Virus record (IMG/VR): IMGVR_UViG_3300020045_002855
Span: 1-56,221 of that record
Direction: 5' to 3' (one strand)
Source: a virus
Lineage: Duplodnaviria; Caudoviricetes
DNA: 56,221 bases
Shown here: piece after piece, positions 35,525 to 44,704 of the stretch
Position numbering within the stretch: position 1 is the first letter of the stretch
Layout of the letters: every line of letters begins with the position of its first letter
The notes under the pieces: model-generated
The model's database searches: none
Told to the model about the DNA's origin: nothing
The model's input: the letters and a program-made list of their open reading frames with translations, nothing else
Made by a program: the position numbers and the translations under genes

Positions 35525-36927
35525 TTACGCAGGAATGGCAACAATAGCCAGCGGAGGAACCATTGCGCCGCCTGCTCCACCTGCTTTCGCAGTTGCCGAT
35601 CCAGCAATCACAGTCCACTGCTGAATCGTGCCAGTGACGGCTTGACCAGGAGTCAACCCTGACATCTCGGTGGTCATGCTTACCACGCCTTTTTGTCCTG
35701 AAATACCAACGGCTGCTGCGCGTGTAGTAGTGCTTTGCGTGCCAGCCATGCGCATAAAAAGCACATCATTTGCAGTCCACTCGTAATAGACCGAAACCTG
35801 AAAAATGACCTTGCCAGTTGGTCCAGCCACTGTCGTAATCTTGCCGTTTGTCGCGTCAATATTTGCCGCCGAAGTAGTTGTCGCGACGGATAGGGCGGTT
35901 GTGGGTGAGTAGATGGTATCAACGGGTGCTGGTGGGATTCCAGACCTAAGTGCTGCAGTTTTACGCGCAGCACTTAGTGGAGTTTCTGCTTCTGATTTGT
36001 ATGTTGCTGGTAAGCTGGCTACAAGCTCTCCTGACAGATTTGTGAACCCGGCAAACTTCGCGGTGCTAGCACCTGCCGAGCAAAAATGCTCACACATCAA
36101 AACACTTGATGGCACATCAGAAAGTTTAAAAACACTGATTGCCAGCACCCCGCACATAGCGGCAATTTCAGCATCCGTGATGGTCATTTGCGATCCATCA
36201 GGCAGCGTTGTGTAAGCAATGCCTGATGTGGCATCCAGTATGGAATCGCAAATCCATGGGTTACGCCGTCAGCAGCAGGGTTTGTAAAGTTTTGAGTCTT
36301 GACAACAAATAGATTGCCAATGCCATTACAGACAAACCATTTGGCTTGCCCGGTAGCCCCGGTTCCCGGAATGACCGACATATGCAACCAAGACTTGGGT
36401 ACGTTAGTTCCACCGCCCTCGTAAATACCATCCCATGCTGCATAAGTCGTATTTCCGTTACCGTCATCAGAACCGGCAGGCATGGTCCATGAACAAACAA
36501 CCCGGCCAACCGGACCTGACTGCTGTGATTGATAGTAGTCGGCCAATCCGCCTGAGCCAGCGCCAGCCTGATTATTTACGATCAACCGCCCTGAGTTGAT
36601 AATTGGGGTCCGGCCGGTCGCATTGAATGTGTAGTCAGCCACCTGCCCAGTGTCCAAAAAACTGGGCGGTGCACCATTTGTCTTTGTTGTGAAATCCACA
36701 TACGCAGACAAATTCCCATCCCCATCCACCAAGATTCCACCAGTACCGGTGCCTCGAAGCGTGAATGTTACACCCGTATCACTGTTTACGCAGTGAGAGC
36801 CTAACGCAGGAGCATAACCACCACTAGCAATAGCTGCGTTAATGGTGGCAATTTCTGCCGTTGTGTACGCACCAAGGTAGGGCGTATTCACACCTCGGAG
36901 TTGGCGCAAAAAGTCTAAGACAGCCAC
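35525..36927 (-). pseudogene. Fibre/receptor-binding-like gene split into two ORFs (36184-36927 and 35525-36187), probably by a -1 frameshift near 36258-36260
   Basis: Gly/Thr/Ala-rich beta-type sequence in both halves; the downstream frame is open from 36268 and reads PWICDSILDATSGIAYTTLPDGSQ into MTITDAE. Confidence 0.6.
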
Positions 36928-37135
36928 GGGAGTCCTTATAAATAAGGTTCATTTTACTGCTACCCTCTTCTATAGAGGGTAGCAGTATGTCTCACATCCC
37001 TGAGGGAGCAGGGAAAACGTGGTCGTAACAGACCTGACGACTGCCATACTGGTCTTTGCGAATGCTGAGACATGTCAGGTCTCTTGACTATCGCATGAGT
37101 AAGAGGCCCCATAAGTGTACACCTTGCGGTCTTCT

Positions 37136-37321
37136 TTAGGGCGAAGTGCATAGCTGCTCCAGGCGTTTTTGGAGTTCTTCCACCGTAGGGCATTCTTTCC
37201 AAAGCGCCGTGACTTCTGTCAAGTTCATGTTAACCAGAAGAGTGTATTGTTTGCTTAACGCTCTGCATGCGTCTAATAGGTCTTGTAGAACCTGCAAAGC
37301 TTCGATCTCTTCTGTAGTCAT
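37136..37321 (-). CDS. Hypothetical protein
   Basis: MTTEEIEALQ...; ATGA-coupled, AGGAG RBS. Confidence 0.5.
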   Translation of the reverse strand: MTTEEIEALQVLQDLLDACRALSKQYTLLVNMNLTEVTALWKECPTVEELQKRLEQLCTSP

Positions 37322-37659
37322 TTCTGCTCCTTGCAACCACGCCACGCAAAACCCTGTATTTCTCCTGTTCTTTCTCTCAGAGAATTTCTTAATGCCCACT
37401 CCTTTGAGGAGTGCGAATAGAACCAACCGTTATCCCACCACGCCCAGCGTACAGCTTTTTTACTCTGCACCTCAAACAACTTTTGATATAGTCCTTTGTG
37501 TACTGGGCTCACACTAGCAGGAAACCAGTACGTCTCCTGACCTGTAGTTGGAAATTCCTTGTTAAGGCTAGCCAGCCGATTGTCCAGTTTCTTTGCTACT
37601 TCTCGTAAAGCCTTAATGTTCTCATCCATCGTCTTTGTAGGATCGAAGACCAGGTTCAT
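37318..37659 (-). CDS. Hypothetical protein
   Basis: 113 aa; WFP....PVH.GLY and WRG motifs; ATGA-coupled. Confidence 0.6.
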   Translation of the reverse strand: MNLVFDPTKTMDENIKALREVAKKLDNRLASLNKEFPTTGQETYWFPASVSPVHKGLYQKLFEVQSKKAVRWAWWDNGWFYSHSSKEWALRNSLRERTGEIQGFAWRGCKEQK

Positions 37660-37886
37660 GACTTCTCCAGTTTGCGTTGTTTGTGGTCCATATTAAACCA
37701 CCAGGAATAACAAGCTTTGTTAGCTAACTCTTGATCTTCTTTCAGAATCTTCTTTAGATCTACAGAAGCCGTCCCTGCTTGGTAGCCCTTGGCGTAGACC
37801 TTGCCAAGTTCTTTGTGGTAGTTGGCAAATACATAAACAGCCGAGATGATCTGTACTACTACGTAGCACATGAGTAACTTACTCCG
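37656..37886 (-). CDS. Small membrane-anchored protein
   Basis: N-terminal hydrophobic helix LLMCYVVVQIISAVYVFA. Confidence 0.55.
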   Translation of the reverse strand, partial: RSKLLMCYVVVQIISAVYVFANYHKELGKVYAKGYQAGTASVDLKKILKEDQELANKACYSWWFNMDHKQRKLEKS

Positions 37887-38043
37887 CATAGCAAGACTCA
37901 CTCAGAAGTCTTTCAAATGCTTCTTTCCAGAGCAGGGCAGCACCTGACCAGACCGGGTAAGGGTTATGTACCTCTGCGCCCGATAGTGCTTCAATTGCAG
38001 CTTTTTCAGCCCTATTAATTACTACTGCTTGAGAGATAATCAT
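37879..38043 (-). CDS. Hypothetical protein
   Basis: MIISQAVV...NPYP..S.AA..W; AAGGAG RBS. Confidence 0.55.
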   Translation of the reverse strand: MIISQAVVINRAEKAAIEALSGAEVHNPYPVWSGAALLWKEAFERLLSESCYAE

Positions 38044-38213
38044 GCTAACTCCTTCATCAAAATCTGAGTCTGTTCTCTGCGCAAAGCAAGTTGGCATTCA
38101 TTGTGGTACTGGAACAGTCGGATGTAGTCCTCTGGACGACCTCCAAACTTTTTCGCACGTTCAGTTGCAGAGGGCACAAGGATAATGGGTTTGTTGCATC
38201 GTTTGCAATTCAT
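38040..38213 (-). CDS. 57-aa CxxC protein (not in the ORF track)
   Basis: MNCKRCNKPIILVPSATERAKKFGGRPEDYIRLFQYHNECQLALRREQTQILMKELA*; stop overlaps the next start. Confidence 0.6.
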   Translation of the reverse strand: MNCKRCNKPIILVPSATERAKKFGGRPEDYIRLFQYHNECQLALRREQTQILMKELA

Positions 38214-38232
38214 GGTTCTCTCTTTTTAAAGT

Positions 38233-38342
38233 TTCAACTAACCCCGCTAGCATGAAGCAGCTTGCTTTAGTGTTTGGGTAGTCTATGTGGTAAGTACAGA
38301 CGTTTGTACCTGCGGAGCTAAACCGCAAGTCGGGATGTTGAA
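38233..38342 (-). ncRNA. Candidate multi-branched structured RNA directly after a tRNA-like gene
   Basis: Closing stems TTCAAC/GTTGAA and CCCG/CGGG enclose hairpins TGCGG/CCGCA, GTACA/TGTAC and AAGCA/TGCTT. Confidence 0.4.
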
Positions 38343-38344
38343 GG

Positions 38345-38420
38345 TGGTTGCGTAGACTGGCCTTGAACCAGTGTCTTCCAGGGGATGTACCTGTTGCTCT
38401 ACCTACTGAGCTACTACGCG
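38345..38420 (-). tRNA. Initiator-like tRNA (CAT) with a non-canonical anticodon loop
   Basis: 76-nt cloverleaf, CGCGTAG/CTACGCA acceptor with C1:A72 mismatch, encoded ACCA; loop TACATCC lacks U33 and purine 37. Confidence 0.75.
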
Positions 38421-38427
38421 GAATCTG

Positions 38428-38507
38428 TGGCCCCTTCTGCAGGAATCGAACCTGCGACGCACACTAGCTGCGCAACTAATGCCGCTCTGCCACTGAGCTA
38501 AGTCGGG
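38428..38507 (-). tRNA. tRNA-like gene with an extended anticodon hairpin and no readable anticodon
   Basis: Canonical D arm (GCTC-AGTGGCA-GAGC), T arm (GCAGG-TTCGATT-CCTGC) and CCA; 22-nt anticodon arm; two acceptor-stem mismatches. Confidence 0.65.
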
Positions 38508-38524
38508 AAACAAAATATTGCATT

Positions 38525-38705
38525 CTGTCACTTTAGCAATCTTTCTAGATCTGCGCACAAGAGGGTGATGCCCTGGCAAATAGTCATGACTGCTAAAGTG
38601 ACAGCCCTTGTTTAAGGGACTGTCTACAGCTAGGCGGGAGGATTATGGCTAAACCTATCTAGCTGTACCTAAGCCCTGCTTAGGACTGCGGTGCCATTAC
38701 ACCGC
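38525..38705 (-). ncRNA. Candidate structured RNA / leader of the tRNA-like cluster
   Basis: Five adjoining stems, including a 14-bp perfect inverted repeat (38525-38538/38591-38604) and a 9-bp one (TACAGCTAG/CTAGCTGTA); no credible ORF. Confidence 0.5.
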
Positions 38706-38714
38706 TCTGGGTTC

Positions 38715-39080
38715 TTACTCCGCCGAAGCAATCTCAGCGGCAGGAGCAATCTCAGCGGCAGGAGCAGTCTCAGCTTCTGGAGCAATCTCAGCGGCAGGAG
38801 CCACCACAGCGTCTGCCAGCTTCCACACACCAACTGCCACGATGGTGCCATTCTCACCGGGCACAGGGCGGACGGTGAACTTGCTCTTGTCACCGGTGCG
38901 TTTCTTGTAGGCCGACAGGGCGCTGGTCAAGCGTGCTTGGACCTTAGCGGCATCCACCACTTCGGTTTCCAGCACGGCTTCATCGGAACCTGCAACCAGG
39001 GCCGAGAAGTCATACTTGGAGCCCTTGGTGGACATGCGGACCAGGGCTGGCATTTTGGCGACTTGAGTAACGATAGACAT
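38715..39080 (-). CDS. Small putative DNA-binding protein with an APAAEI-repeat tail
   Basis: SKYDF...FTVR...VGVWK core seen in small phage proteins; 18-bp tandem repeats at the 3' end; AAGGA RBS. Confidence 0.65.
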   Translation of the reverse strand: MSIVTQVAKMPALVRMSTKGSKYDFSALVAGSDEAVLETEVVDAAKVQARLTSALSAYKKRTGDKSKFTVRPVPGENGTIVAVGVWKLADAVVAPAAEIAPEAETAPAAEIAPAAEIASAE

Positions 39081-39192
39081 TTGGGAAATCCTTTTGGTTG
39101 GTTGAAGTACGTAGTATAACGAAAAACTAGAGTCAGGGAAAATTTTTCAAACTATTTCTGGGGGGAGACCTGTTGCGTATTTTCCACATACG

Positions 39193-39534
39193 TCAGACGG
39201 TCTGGTCAGGGGCCTTTGCAGGCTTCTTTGCTTGGAGCTTGGTCACGGGCTCTGTAATCTTACTGGCACGCTGAAAGCCTTGCTTGGCCTCCCGGAGAAG
39301 GGTTGGCTCTTCCACCGCCACCTTCAATTCAAACTCGCCGACAAGTCCAGATGCCGCAGCGAAAGCCTGTTTTTGTATGTCAAGTCTTTTGATCTTAGCT
39401 TCCAGCATCGTAACTTGAGCCTGCCAAGATTCAAGTGTCCCATAAGCCTGCAGTAGGGCTACTTGGCAGCGTTCCAGCTCTTTGCCTACCAAAACTTCCA
39501 CGCTAGGGTTGAACAGGTTCTTGATGAATTTCAT
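39193..39534 (-). CDS. Hypothetical coiled-coil protein
   Basis: 113-aa ORF in the operon. Confidence 0.55.
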   Translation of the reverse strand: MKFIKNLFNPSVEVLVGKELERCQVALLQAYGTLESWQAQVTMLEAKIKRLDIQKQAFAAASGLVGEFELKVAVEEPTLLREAKQGFQRASKITEPVTKLQAKKPAKAPDQTV

Positions 39535-39730
39535 AAGTCTTTACTTTCTTACCTTTGTAATATGATGAATGAATAGCCCACATAGAGTGTTTCATCACCA
39601 GTATGTGACGAACTCTCCCCTCTGTGGCGGTTGGTAGGGCTGCTTTAATGGAGAAGAAGCCTGCAACTTTAGCACCTGATGAGGTAACTACAACTACAGG
39701 CCTCTCACCCTTGTACTCTTTAAGTTTCAC
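39503..39730 (-). CDS. Hypothetical protein
   Basis: 75-aa ORF tiling between neighbours. Confidence 0.45.
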   Translation of the reverse strand: MKLKEYKGERPVVVVTSSGAKVAGFFSIKAALPTATEGRVRHILVMKHSMWAIHSSYYKGKKVKTYEIHQEPVQP

Positions 39731-39732
39731 AG

Positions 39733-39972
39733 TCAGATACCAAGGTTTCCTGTTTCGGGTGTGAGATTAACGTCACGGCGTTTTCCTTTAACTAATCTTA
39801 AATGGTCATCTTTGACCTGCAACCACCCGATTACAGCACCTTTATACTTGATGCTCCACTTTCTGCGCTGCTGCGTTTGGTAACCTTGCGCAGCGACAGC
39901 CAGCAGTGTCCGCAGTGTTACACCGAGATCGGTAATCTCGATGTAACCCTCTTGGTGGAGGTGAACTGACAT
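39733..39972 (-). CDS. Hypothetical protein
   Basis: 79-aa ORF; start overlaps the peptidase stop. Confidence 0.5.
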   Translation of the reverse strand: MSVHLHQEGYIEITDLGVTLRTLLAVAAQGYQTQQRRKWSIKYKGAVIGWLQVKDDHLRLVKGKRRDVNLTPETGNLGI

Positions 39973-41120
39973 TACGTAAAGAACCGATTCAGTACGTCAA
40001 CTTCCATTTGCAACGCTTTCTTCTTGGCAAAAAGCAGACATAAAAGGTCAGACGCAATGGTGGGTTCTTCCTCAACAAGTGCTATAAAATCCTCATAAGT
40101 GTATTGCTCCAACTCCTCCATAAGTGAAAGGGTTGGCACGACAGGCTTAGATACAGGAGCCTTAAAAGGAGAGTTTGTCTTTCCGCCTGCTCTGGTATCA
40201 AGTAATCCGTAGAAGTCTTCATTGAACATATTTCGCTGGTACGGCGGCTCTACTGCAATCTTTCGTACTGTAGGAATCTTGCCCCAGTTCACTTTGATTG
40301 CAGCAGCGACAAACGCCTCAAGGTGGTCCACATCAAGATATTCGTTAGGGGTGTGTTGGTCCATGTAACCTACCCCCATGTTGAAACACTCAGGAATTGC
40401 TTTAGCGTAAATCTTTGTGTCAGTAAATGAACCCCTGTGCGAGACTTCATAAGGTAGGCCGAGGTCTGTAAAGGCCTTGGCGATAGCCTCTCCCGCAGCT
40501 ACAGAGGCACATGGTGAGCCACCTTGTGTGCAAATCACCTCATAGTTATCTGCACGATCAAAGGCAATAGCCCGGTCAAACATTTCCAGCCACGCTTGGT
40601 TTTTAGCCAGGAAAGCTCGTGACCCAATGCCGCCCTTCTCTTCACCTGTATTGAAGATATAAGAGCCAGGAACCTTGGCTTCCATCATCTTCAACATGAT
40701 GTAGATACCCGCACCATCGTCAGCACCGAGGCAACCAGACGTTTTCTTGTCCAGCAGCATCAAGTGTCCCATAGTAGGGTCAAATGCCAGTGCTTGCTGC
40801 GTGCCATCGCTCTCCTTGGCACTGTGGCAGGTATCCACATGGCAGCTAAATAGCGTGGTACTCTTTGGGTCTGTAACAGCCGTGATTACACCTTCCACAC
40901 GAATTTCTGGGACGTACCCCAGGGACTTGATGTAAGCGTGCAGCCAGATACGAAAGTCAGTATCACCCTTGCTACCGTGGCAGCGCCGTGTACTGAGAAT
41001 CCGGTGCAGCAGGGGGTCTAGCAACTCTTTAGACTGTGGCACGGATGGTGACGGGATTGAGGGTGCCGCCTGGGAGGTTGTAGCTGGTTGCAGGGGTGAG
41101 GTCAGTTTCTGGTTGGTCAT
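39972..41120 (-). CDS. M28/M20-family zinc peptidase
   Basis: CHVDT, LGADDGAG, GEEKGGIGS, AIAFDR, FTD and QHT.NE metal-ligand motifs; start uncertain (41120 or 41147). Confidence 0.85.
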   Translation of the reverse strand: MTNQKLTSPLQPATTSQAAPSIPSPSVPQSKELLDPLLHRILSTRRCHGSKGDTDFRIWLHAYIKSLGYVPEIRVEGVITAVTDPKSTTLFSCHVDTCHSAKESDGTQQALAFDPTMGHLMLLDKKTSGCLGADDGAGIYIMLKMMEAKVPGSYIFNTGEEKGGIGSRAFLAKNQAWLEMFDRAIAFDRADNYEVICTQGGSPCASVAAGEAIAKAFTDLGLPYEVSHRGSFTDTKIYAKAIPECFNMGVGYMDQHTPNEYLDVDHLEAFVAAAIKVNWGKIPTVRKIAVEPPYQRNMFNEDFYGLLDTRAGGKTNSPFKAPVSKPVVPTLSLMEELEQYTYEDFIALVEEEPTIASDLLCLLFAKKKALQMEVDVLNRFFT

Positions 41121-43107: not shown

Positions 43108-43182
43108 TGGTCTCAGCAACAGGAATCGAACCTGTATCTAGCGCTTAGGAGGCACTTGTTCGTTCCATTGAACTATGCTGAG
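43108..43182 (-). tRNA. tRNA-Arg (CCT)
   Basis: CTCAGCA/TGCTGAG acceptor, loop CTCCTAA, T loop TTCGATT, encoded CCA. Confidence 0.93.
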
Positions 43183-43186
43183 AGTT

Positions 43187-43261
43187 TGGTCTGCCCTGCC
43201 GGAATCGAACCAGCATTGTGGAGGTAGAAGCTCCGTCTATTATCCGTTATAGGAAGGGCAG
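43187..43261 (-). tRNA. tRNA-Arg (TCT)
   Basis: CTGCCCT/AGGGCAG acceptor, loop CTTCTAC, T loop TTCGATT, encoded CCA. Confidence 0.92.
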
Positions 43262-43265
43262 TAGT

Positions 43266-43341
43266 TGGCGCGCCGGACAGGATTTGAACCTGCGACCGAT
43301 GGCTTATGAGGCCACAACTCTAACCGCTGAGTTACCGGCGC
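43266..43341 (-). tRNA. tRNA with CAT anticodon (elongator Met or Ile2)
   Basis: GCGCCGG/CCGGCGC acceptor, loop CTCATAA, T loop TTCAAAT, encoded CCA. Confidence 0.92.
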
Positions 43342-44125: not shown

Positions 44126-44704
44126 TTACTTGCTCTTCTTGGCGACGGTCTTCTTGGCGACAGGTTTTGCAACCGGCTTCACAGCTTTAGCTGCAGGCTT
44201 CACCACTTTGACCGTAGGTTTGACTTTGGTCACCGACTTTGCAGGGGCTTTGGCAACCGTTTTAGCCGTAGCAACCGCCTTCACAGGGGCTTTGACTACT
44301 TTCGCCGCAGGTTTGGCCGTTTTTGCGGCGGTTTTGGTTGGCGCTTTGGCCTTCGGTGCTGCAGTTTTCGCTGGAGCCTTGGCCTTCGGTGCCACTGGTG
44401 CCACTGGTGCCACCGCCGGTGCCACAACCGACACAGCCACTGGCGCAGCCATGCCATCATCAAGTGCTTCGCCGGTCAGTTTGTCGGAGATGACGCGGTA
44501 GTGCTCACGACTTGGATCTTCGATGAAGAACTTGATCTTACGGCTGTGGGGAATGCCGTGGGCGCGGCGCACTTCTGCGTAGATACGCTTTTTGGTAGCC
44601 TTGCCGGTCCGGCTGTAGACACGCTTGCCTTGGTTGTCAAAGGTGCTATTTACACGGTTGGCCAGCAGTTCACGAGCTTGTTTCTCGGTTATGTACATCT
44701 TCAT
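44126..44704 (-). CDS. Histone H1-like protein (basic N-domain plus Pro/Ala/Lys/Val repeat tail)
   Basis: About 100-aa tail of PAK/KPAAK/KTVAK repeats. Confidence 0.75.
   Translation of the reverse strand: MKMYITEKQARELLANRVNSTFDNQGKRVYSRTGKATKKRIYAEVRRAHGIPHSRKIKFFIEDPSREHYRVISDKLTGEALDDGMAAPVAVSVVAPAVAPVAPVAPKAKAPAKTAAPKAKAPTKTAAKTAKPAAKVVKAPVKAVATAKTVAKAPAKSVTKVKPTVKVVKPAAKAVKPVAKPVAKKTVAKKSK

What the first reader, a model, noticed from the sequence alone, without database searches (positions are those of the whole stretch)
38345..38420. Initiator-type tRNA with all four anticodon-flanking bases rewritten
Seen: a 76-nt cloverleaf with the bacterial fMet hallmarks CGCG.../...CGCA-ACCA (C1:A72 mismatch) and a centred CAT. 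The loop is TA-CAT-CC instead of CT-CAT-AA, so near-invariant U33 and purine 37 are lost, and only two of the three initiator G:C anticodon-stem pairs remain. The D, T and acceptor stems are intact, which argues against random decay. Established: anticodon nucleases such as enteric VapC cut tRNA-fMet in the anticodon stem-loop. Inference: either a nuclease-resistant initiator or a non-decoding decoy.
Basis: partly seen in the sequence, partly recalled or inferred. Interest (0 to 1): 0.7.

Follow-up and report, generated by a model that had tools for sequence, protein, structure and literature searches.

The report
Phage initiator-type tRNA with aberrant loop
A freshwater phage carries a well-folded start-codon (initiator-type) tRNA gene whose codon-reading loop breaks two near-universal tRNA rules, but related phages carry other versions at the same spot, so it may be a defence-evading variant or a copy that is losing its function.

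Summary
Window 38345-38420 (minus strand) is a 76-nt tRNA(CAT): ARAGORN, Rfam 46.7 bits. It has C1xA72, A73-CCA and loop T32 A33 CAT C37 C38.

Two of the "defects" are natural variants. A29:T41 is the normal alpha-proteobacterial initiator stem (PMC5389676). T32/C38 recurs in viral CAT tRNAs. A33 plus C37 is the real oddity: 0 of 189 viral initiator-stem CAT tRNAs have A33, and 0 of 275 viral tRNAs have C37.

The loop is not conserved. The only full-length relative has TTCATAA at the syntenic gene. A third allele, seen in one metagenome contig, has CCCATAA. Against the relative, the gene is 65.8% identical while its flanks are 88-92% identical. Seven of 21 stem pairs changed on both sides and still pair.

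So the cloverleaf is under selection while the anticodon arm varies. My best reading (0.4) is a selected counter-defence initiator variant. Lineage-specific decay (0.33) is not excluded. There are no expression data and no independent reads of this allele.

The scan had already noted the neighbouring odd tRNA in another genome.

The parts
38345..38420 (-). 76-nt initiator-type tRNA(CAT) with C1xA72, A73 and an encoded CCA
   Evidence: ARAGORN; Rfam tRNA 46.7 bits; the minimum-free-energy fold is the cloverleaf; 56.6 bits on the initiator model R1
38383..38389 (-). Anticodon loop T32 A33 C34 A35 T36 C37 C38. It lacks T33 and a purine at 37. T32/C38 replaces C32/A38.
   Evidence: Sequence read; rarity
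38421..38427 (-). 7-nt spacer between the two tRNA genes, which implies co-transcription (inferred)
   Evidence: Coordinates; sequence
38428..38507 (-). Upstream partner: an 80-nt tRNA-like gene. Its anticodon arm is a 7-bp stem with an 8-nt loop (foldable to 9 bp plus a GCGC tetraloop). It has acceptor mismatches at 4:69 and 5:68. It is 92.5% identical to the relative's copy.
   Evidence: (35.7 bits)
38508..38580 (-). Conserved upstream non-coding stretch, 90.4% identical to the relative. A promoter or leader is inferred only.
   Evidence: no sigma-70 consensus match
38280..38344 (-). Conserved downstream non-coding stretch, 87.9% identical to the relative, with a 6-bp GC hairpin at 38310-38328
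   Evidence: no terminator-consensus match

Best explanation
This is a genuine phage-encoded tRNA of the bacterial initiator type. It is kept under selection for its L-shaped body and its formylation-type acceptor end. It lies second in a two-gene unit, behind a highly conserved tRNA-like RNA.

Inferred mechanism: the host MetRS charges it through the CAT anticodon. It is formylated through C1xA72, G2:C71, C3:G70 and A73. It then serves as an extra initiator, or as a bait. [quoted passage not shown]

Shown: the gene, its fold, its initiator-type acceptor, allele diversity at the locus, and structure-preserving divergence. Inferred: charging, formylation, use in initiation, and any link to a nuclease.
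For: 1. The body is intact. All stems pair except the designed 1:72 mismatch and 27:43, and all tertiary bases are present.
2. Against the syntenic ortholog, 7 of 21 pairs changed on both sides and still pair. The 1:72 mismatch is kept although base 1 differs, CxA versus GxA.
3. Positions 1-4 and 69-76 are identical to E. coli metZ.
4. The score on the initiator model minus the score on the generic tRNA model is +9.9 bits here and +16.6 for the ortholog. It is -14.9 for the window's other CAT tRNA and -20.5 for tRNA-Arg(CCT).
5. Both violated near-universal bases lie in the anticodon loop, and CAT is kept in all three alleles seen.
6. Each single oddity recurs in other well-formed viral tRNAs. 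T37-C38 occurs in the initiator-type tRNAs of L310 (54.8 bits) and L290 (50.7 bits). A33 occurs in L216 tRNA(CAT) (65.4 bits) and in L099/L128 tRNA-Lys. C33 occurs in 14 of 189.
7. C38 sits at the VapC cleavage bond (PMC4105405 passages). The evasion concept is published (PMC10264068 passages).
Against: 1. The odd loop is not conserved. The only full-length relative has TTCATAA.
2. No public run holds this allele, so there is no independent read support and no RNA evidence.
3. T33 and a purine at 37 are needed for normal anticodon presentation. A37, G29:C41 and C32/A38 form the initiator-specific arm conformation in E. coli (PMC2528185 passages), and all of them are changed here.
4. On the initiator model the gene scores 56.6 bits, barely above a non-initiator CAT tRNA at 53.0 and well below the ortholog at 72.7.
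5. The D stem lacks A11:T24.
6. The host and its nucleases are unknown.
7. This finding was picked as an outlier from a very large scan, so a chance combination of two roughly 1% oddities is not excluded.
Confidence: 0.4

Rival explanations
1. Lineage-specific decay. The initiator-type tRNA is dispensable for this phage, its anticodon loop has drifted (T33 to A, A37 to C, A38 to C), and the gene is an early pseudogene whose body has not yet degraded.
For: The relative has a normal loop. The tRNA gene is the least conserved piece of a 500-nt conserved intergenic block, at 65.8% against 88-92%. The Rfam score drops from 56.1 bits in the relative to 46.7. The initiator-model score is close to that of a non-initiator CAT tRNA. 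More distant relatives of this phage group lack the tRNA pair altogether: among the 80 peptidase-anchored loci (L003-L082), only L003, which is the close relative's own contig again, carries it.
Against: Apart from position 27:43, the only violations lie in the loop. All 21 stem pairs bar the designed 1:72 mismatch and 27:43, and all tertiary bases, are intact. CAT is retained. T32/C38 is a recurring natural pair, and Y37-C38 recurs in two other viral initiator-type tRNAs.
Confidence: 0.33
2. A body-only role unrelated to defence. The cloverleaf would serve as an RNase P/Z processing signal or a stabiliser for the co-transcribed, highly conserved tRNA-like RNA or for neighbouring transcripts, so the loop is free to vary.
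For: A 7-nt spacer follows the 92.5%-conserved partner. The stems are compensated while the loop and arm vary in all three alleles.
Against: This does not explain why CAT, A73 and the 1:72 mismatch are kept in both full alleles.
Confidence: 0.15
3. Extended pairing or a private start context. C37 and C38 (and A33) would pair with G at -1 and -2 (and T at +4), so the tRNA would favour starts of the form GGATG(T).
For: The idea came from earlier notes of this scan on other phages. The loop is exactly complementary to GGATGTA.
Against: In my crude gene calls, GG at -2/-1 occurs in 2 of 85 starts and G is the rarest base at -1, 7 of 85. GGATGTA occurs 7 times against 4.98 expected, and 21 of 100 shuffles reach 7. 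GGATGT occurs 23 times against 20.3 expected.
Confidence: 0.03
4. A sequencing or assembly error in the loop.
For: No independent run holds this allele.
Against: The three substitutions within 6 bases are all transversions, with no indel, inside an otherwise coherent gene. The gene also differs from the relatives at 23 other positions in a structure-preserving way.
Confidence: 0.03

Closest known systems
Bacterial initiator tRNA-fMet (E. coli metZ, fetched; alpha-proteobacterial 'first A:U' type, PMC5389676)
   Same: CAT anticodon, C1xA72, G2:C71, C3:G70, G4:C69, A73-CCA, G30:C40 and G31:C39. A29:T41 is as in alpha-proteobacteria.
   Different: A33 instead of T33, C37 instead of A37, T32/C38 instead of C32/A38, C11:G24 instead of A11:T24, and an A27xG43 mismatch.
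Phage tRNAs with anticodon-loop mutations proposed to evade anticodon nucleases (van den Berg et al. 2023, PMC10264068; passages read)
   Same: A phage-encoded tRNA whose differences from the canonical isoacceptor lie in the anticodon loop, next to a known cleavage bond (38|39 for VapC on tRNA-fMet).
   Different: That paper reports that phages of VapC-bearing Shigella mostly avoid encoding tRNA-fMet. Here an initiator type is encoded. The changes remove T33 and the purine at 37, which that paper's main text does not mention (0 hits for 'U33' and for 'position 37'). Its supplementary tables were not visible to me.
Viral initiator-type tRNAs with T37-C38 loops found here (L310:10587-10664, L290:3947-4022)
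   Same: A CAT anticodon, a CAGG/CCTG anticodon stem, a weak or mismatched 1:72 pair, and pyrimidine-37 plus C38.
   Different: They keep T33. L310 has the A11:T24 D stem and scores 86.9 bits on the initiator model, against 56.6 here.
L243:7237-7311, a phage initiator-like tRNA of the same architecture
   Same: C1xA72, a C11:G24 D stem, a CCAGG/CCTGG anticodon stem followed by AAG, A73-CCA.
   Different: It has the canonical CTCATAA loop and sits in an unrelated, GC-rich phage contig.
Initiator tRNAs of multicellular eukaryotes with C33 (PMC8887486; passages read)
   Same: They show that an initiator can work without U33.
   Different: They have C33, not A33. A37 is kept and is modified. The domain of life is different.

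Membership tests
Bacterial initiator tRNA (tRNA-fMet) | Anticodon CAT | tested here: met
Bacterial initiator tRNA (tRNA-fMet) | Non-Watson-Crick 1:72 (C1xA72), with G2:C71, C3:G70 and A73 | tested here: met
   Identical to E. coli metZ at positions 1-4 and 69-76
Bacterial initiator tRNA (tRNA-fMet) | Three consecutive G:C pairs at 29:41, 30:40 and 31:39 | tested here: inconclusive
   Two of three are present. A29:T41 is the natural alpha-proteobacterial variant. It occurs with a canonical loop in 72 of 99 matches.
Bacterial initiator tRNA (tRNA-fMet) | A11:T24 in the D stem | tested here: not met
   C11:G24. The ortholog L001 and L243 share this.
Bacterial initiator tRNA (tRNA-fMet) | Canonical loop with pyrimidine 32, T33, A37 and A38 | tested here: not met
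   The loop is T32 A33 CAT C37 C38
Bacterial initiator tRNA (tRNA-fMet) | Profile score typical of initiators | tested here: inconclusive
   Model R1: 56.6 bits, against 72.7-86.9 for L001, L243 and L310, 53.0 for a non-initiator CAT tRNA, and 25.9-39.8 for Arg tRNAs
Bacterial initiator tRNA (tRNA-fMet) | Methionylation, formylation and P-site initiation | not testable with these tools
   Needs biochemistry
Anticodon-nuclease-evading phage tRNA (PMC10264068) | Phage-encoded tRNA with loop changes at or near a known cleavage site | tested here: met
   C38 lies at the VapC A38|C39 bond.
Anticodon-nuclease-evading phage tRNA (PMC10264068) | The host encodes a nuclease that targets the matching host tRNA, and the phage tRNA is insensitive to it | not testable with these tools
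   The host is unknown. Searches gave no route to host genomes.
tRNA pseudogene | Broken stems or lost tertiary bases across the molecule | tested here: not met
   Only 27:43 and the loop deviate

The most novel reading that the evidence does not exclude
The A33/C37/C38 loop is an adaptive redesign. It would be a natural bacterial-type initiator tRNA that still starts translation without the U-turn uridine and without a purine at 37. It would be one of several fast-swapping alleles at a phage locus that escape host enzymes aimed at the initiator's anticodon arm.
Probability: 0.2. Interest if true: 0.7.

Novelty: new variant of a known kind. Interest (0 to 1): 0.42.

Why it matters
If this tRNA is functional, it would show that initiation in bacteria tolerates the loss of both U33 and purine 37. 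It would also extend the published idea that phage tRNAs evade anticodon nucleases to the initiator tRNA, the one tRNA that phages were reported to avoid encoding (PMC10264068).

The locus offers a simple natural experiment. Three alleles of one tRNA sit between nearly identical flanks, so they could be compared directly for charging, initiation and nuclease sensitivity.

If it is decaying, it is an ordinary phage pseudo-tRNA. In that case it mainly warns that "two G:C pairs" and T32/C38 are normal variation.

Tried and rejected
Searches for relatives
- blastn of 37800-39000 against INPHARED phages gave no match.
- blastn of the tRNA alone gave only generic tRNA-body matches of at most about 80% identity (Ile, Asn, Phe tRNAs).
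- Exact-pattern scans found nothing beyond the relative's contig. These were: the tRNA with a free loop; the odd-tRNA arm in viral, metagenome and genome collections (one search hit only the relative's contig); the odd-tRNA 5' part plus T arm; the tRNA 3' part; and the third-allele fragment.
- Peptidase-anchored loci: of the 80 kept loci (L003-L082), only L003, the close relative's own contig again, carries the tRNA pair.

Sequencing runs
- No RNA holder was listed.
- None of the four runs laid covers the window-type tRNA. X1 and X4 do not reach the locus.

Rejected or uninformative tests
- Extended loop-to-mRNA pairing was rejected.
- Consensus promoter and terminator scans found 0 sites.
- At a permissive threshold, Rfam adds only a weak YrlA match, 24.7 bits against a gathering score of 69, which I take to be tRNA-likeness.
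- Pfam and PHROGs on 20 + 10 neighbouring ORFs gave no informative function and no PIN, RNA ligase, formyltransferase or deformylase. I did not scan all ORFs of the genome.
- I tested whether a group I intron explains the tRNA 5' halves ending A-CAT-C in other phages. No intron matched at the gathering score.

Limits
- The host could not be identified.
- Supplementary tables of PMC10264068 may list phage tRNA-fMet cases.

Full report
WHAT IS THERE

The window is the whole held record, 56,221 bases in one contig. It is a tailed phage, and probably a fragment. It encodes a tape-measure protein, a central tail fibre J-like protein, an endolysin, PolA-type DNA polymerase, primase, helicase, SbcCD, ligase and thymidylate synthase. 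No head genes were seen among the 19 large ORFs I scanned against PHROGs.

ARAGORN finds six tRNA-like genes and Rfam confirms five. The finding is the 76-nt gene at 38345-38420 on the minus strand, at 46.7 bits. Its minimum-free-energy fold is the cloverleaf (z = -2.49; 2 of 200 shuffles fold as well).

Read, the gene has:
- acceptor stem CGCGTAG/CTACGCA with C1xA72, then A73-CCA;
- D arm GCTC-AGTAGGTA-GAGC;
- anticodon stem ACAGG/CCTGG, with A27xG43 and A29:T41;
- loop TACATCC;
- variable loop AAGAC;
- T arm ACTGG-TTCAAGG-CCAGT.

All standard tertiary-interaction bases are present.

WHAT IS ORDINARY AND WHAT IS ODD

Positions 1-4 and 69-76 equal those of E. coli metZ. The acceptor end is therefore exactly that of tRNA-fMet.

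The "missing" first G:C pair is not a defect. [quoted passage not shown] In a scan of IMG/VR for CAGG-NN-CAT-NN-CCTG plus a T loop, 72 of 99 distinct matches carry this stem with the canonical CTCATAA loop.

T32 with C38 is also recurrent. Loops of the form TT-CAT-NC make up 14 of 90 and 10 of 99 matches in the two scans, while C32 goes with A38.

The real oddities are A33 and C37:
- A33 occurs in 0 of 189 matches. A pyrimidine at 37 occurs in 3 of 189 (L115, L290, L310).
- Among 275 distinct ARAGORN tRNAs from 190 viral loci, position 33 is T 260, C 13, A 2, and position 37 is A 240, G 32, T 3, C 0. None has both deviations.

These samples are biased. The loci were chosen through a peptidase homolog or through the CAT patterns, and they include host tRNAs at prophage ends.

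Each single oddity does occur in well-formed viral tRNAs:
- T37-C38 in the initiator-type tRNAs of L310 (54.8 bits) and L290 (50.7 bits);
- A33 in L216 tRNA(CAT) (65.4 bits) and in two near-identical tRNA-Lys genes;
- C33 in 14 of 189, and in the tRNA-Ile of the cultured Erwinia phage Ea9-2.

The D stem is C11:G24, not the A11:T24 of metZ. The ortholog and L243 share this.

RELATIVES

Public data hold very few relatives. One IMG/VR contig (G001, 73,929 bases; its peptidase is about 70% identical) has the same two-gene unit. The two phages are 64-80% identical at DNA level in most aligned coding regions, but the roughly 500-nt intergenic block around the tRNAs is far more conserved. Identity by segment:
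- upstream 73 nt: 90.4%;
- upstream tRNA-like gene: 92.5%;
- the tRNA(CAT): 65.8%;
- downstream 65 nt: 87.9%.

The ortholog has G1xA72, three G:C pairs and a normal TTCATAA loop. Between the two alleles, 7 of 21 stem pairs changed on both sides and still pair. No stem is broken apart from one anticodon-stem mismatch in each allele, and the 1:72 mismatch persists although base 1 differs.

Contigs of four freshwater metagenome runs were laid on 36500-40500:
- X2 carries the relative's allele.
- In X3, a 226-nt contig (depth 8.5) matches 38406-38542 with 4 differences. It then diverges from about tRNA position 15 onward into a third allele, with loop CCCATAA (C33) and an A31xC39 mismatch.
- No run holds the window's allele.

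So at least three alleles of this tRNA sit between near-identical flanks. All keep CAT, and each has its own irregularity in the anticodon arm. The sharp breakpoint in X3 points to exchange by recombination rather than gradual drift (inference).

INITIATOR-LIKENESS BY PROFILE

I built a covariance model from 21 canonical initiators, 20 from viral loci plus metZ. Scores are below.

| tRNA | Initiator model R1 (bits) | R1 minus Rfam generic tRNA score (bits) |
|---|---|---|
| L310 | 86.9 | |
| L243 | 77.5 | |
| Ortholog in L001 | 72.7 | +16.6 |
| The finding | 56.6 | +9.9 |
| Window's other CAT tRNA (G1-C72) | 53.0 | -14.9 |
| Window tRNA-Arg(CCT) | 39.8 | -20.5 |
| Arg tRNAs overall | 25.9-39.8 | |

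The finding leans initiator, but its absolute score is no better than that of a non-initiator CAT tRNA.

HOW IT MOST LIKELY WORKS

The body and acceptor end are under selection. The anticodon arm is either under different selection or under none.

E. coli tRNA-fMet has an initiator-specific arm conformation built from A37 with G29:C41 and from C32 with A38 (PMC2528185, passages). All of these bases are changed here together.

Enteric VapC cuts tRNA-fMet between A38 and C39 (stated in PMC4105405, passages). Phage tRNAs have been proposed to escape such enzymes through loop mutations (PMC10264068, abstract and passages). Initiators of multicellular eukaryotes work with C33 (PMC8887486, passages).

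My best reading (0.4) is a selected variant that is still charged and formylated, and that either replaces the host's attacked initiator or acts as a bait for the attacker. Charging, formylation, initiation and any nuclease link are all inferred.

The main rival (0.33) is decay in this lineage. It is favoured by the normal loop of the ortholog and by the low scores. A body-only role (0.15), extended pairing with the start context (0.03; tested and disfavoured) and sequence error (0.03) follow.

NOVELTY

This is a new variant of a known kind, namely phage tRNAs with altered anticodon loops and phage-encoded initiator-type tRNAs. I searched the held literature four times. In the listings and the passages I read, I saw no description of a natural bacterial-type initiator with A33 and a pyrimidine at 37. 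That is no proof that none is in print.

THE NEIGHBOUR

The upstream 80-nt tRNA-like gene is more conserved than anything around it, and it shows a compensated T-stem change. Earlier first-stage notes of this scan flagged the same RNA in another genome. It may be the functional core of the locus and deserves its own follow-up.

Noticed in passing
window 38428-38507 (-): An 80-nt tRNA-like gene. Its anticodon arm is a 7-bp stem with the 8-nt loop TTGCGCAG, foldable to 9 bp plus a GCGC tetraloop in the relative. It has conserved acceptor mismatches at 4:69 and 5:68. It is 92.5% identical to the relative's copy and shows a compensated T-stem pair. It is unlikely to decode in the normal way.
   Followed up: partly
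window 38214-38714: The whole roughly 500-nt intergenic block, apart from the tRNA(CAT) and about 30 nt near 38625-38654, is 77-92% identical to the relative, against 64-80% for most coding regions. It contains several conserved hairpins.
   Followed up: partly
window 43108-43341 (-): A cluster of tRNA-Arg(CCT), tRNA-Arg(TCT) and a second CAT tRNA with G1-C72, C4-G69 and C5-G68. The last may be tRNA-Ile2 (that identity is recalled, not tested). The phage uses AGA+AGG for 37.5% of Arg codons and ATA for 22% of Ile codons. The relative lacks the second CAT tRNA at this position.
   Followed up: partly
window 43187-43261 (-): The tRNA-Arg(TCT) has TC instead of TA at positions 8-9 and the loop CTTCTAC. 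It scores 47.1 bits, against 65.7 for its ortholog, so a second tRNA of this phage also departs from the relative's copy.
   Followed up: no
window 44326-44417 (+): The ARAGORN 'tRNA-Cys' of 92 nt has no Rfam support. It is probably a false call.
   Followed up: no
L290:4299-4371 (+): A viral tRNA with C1xA72 and the loop TTTATAA (anticodon TAT), next to the T37-C38 initiator-type tRNA. It may be an initiator-type acceptor on an AUA-reading anticodon.
   Followed up: no
L204, L206, L209, L210, L213, L214, L218-L220: Mostly large-phage contigs with tRNA 5' halves ending A-CAT followed by insertions. Rfam tRNA matches of 101-118 nt occur at L210, L213 and L214. No group I intron matched at the gathering score.
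   Followed up: partly
L216:7252-7316 (+): A type II hammerhead ribozyme match (58.3 bits), 1.5 kb from the A33 tRNA(CAT).
   Followed up: no
L221:54-129 (Erwinia phage Ea9-2): The annotated tRNA-Ile has the loop CCGATAA, so it has C33 in a cultured phage.
   Followed up: no
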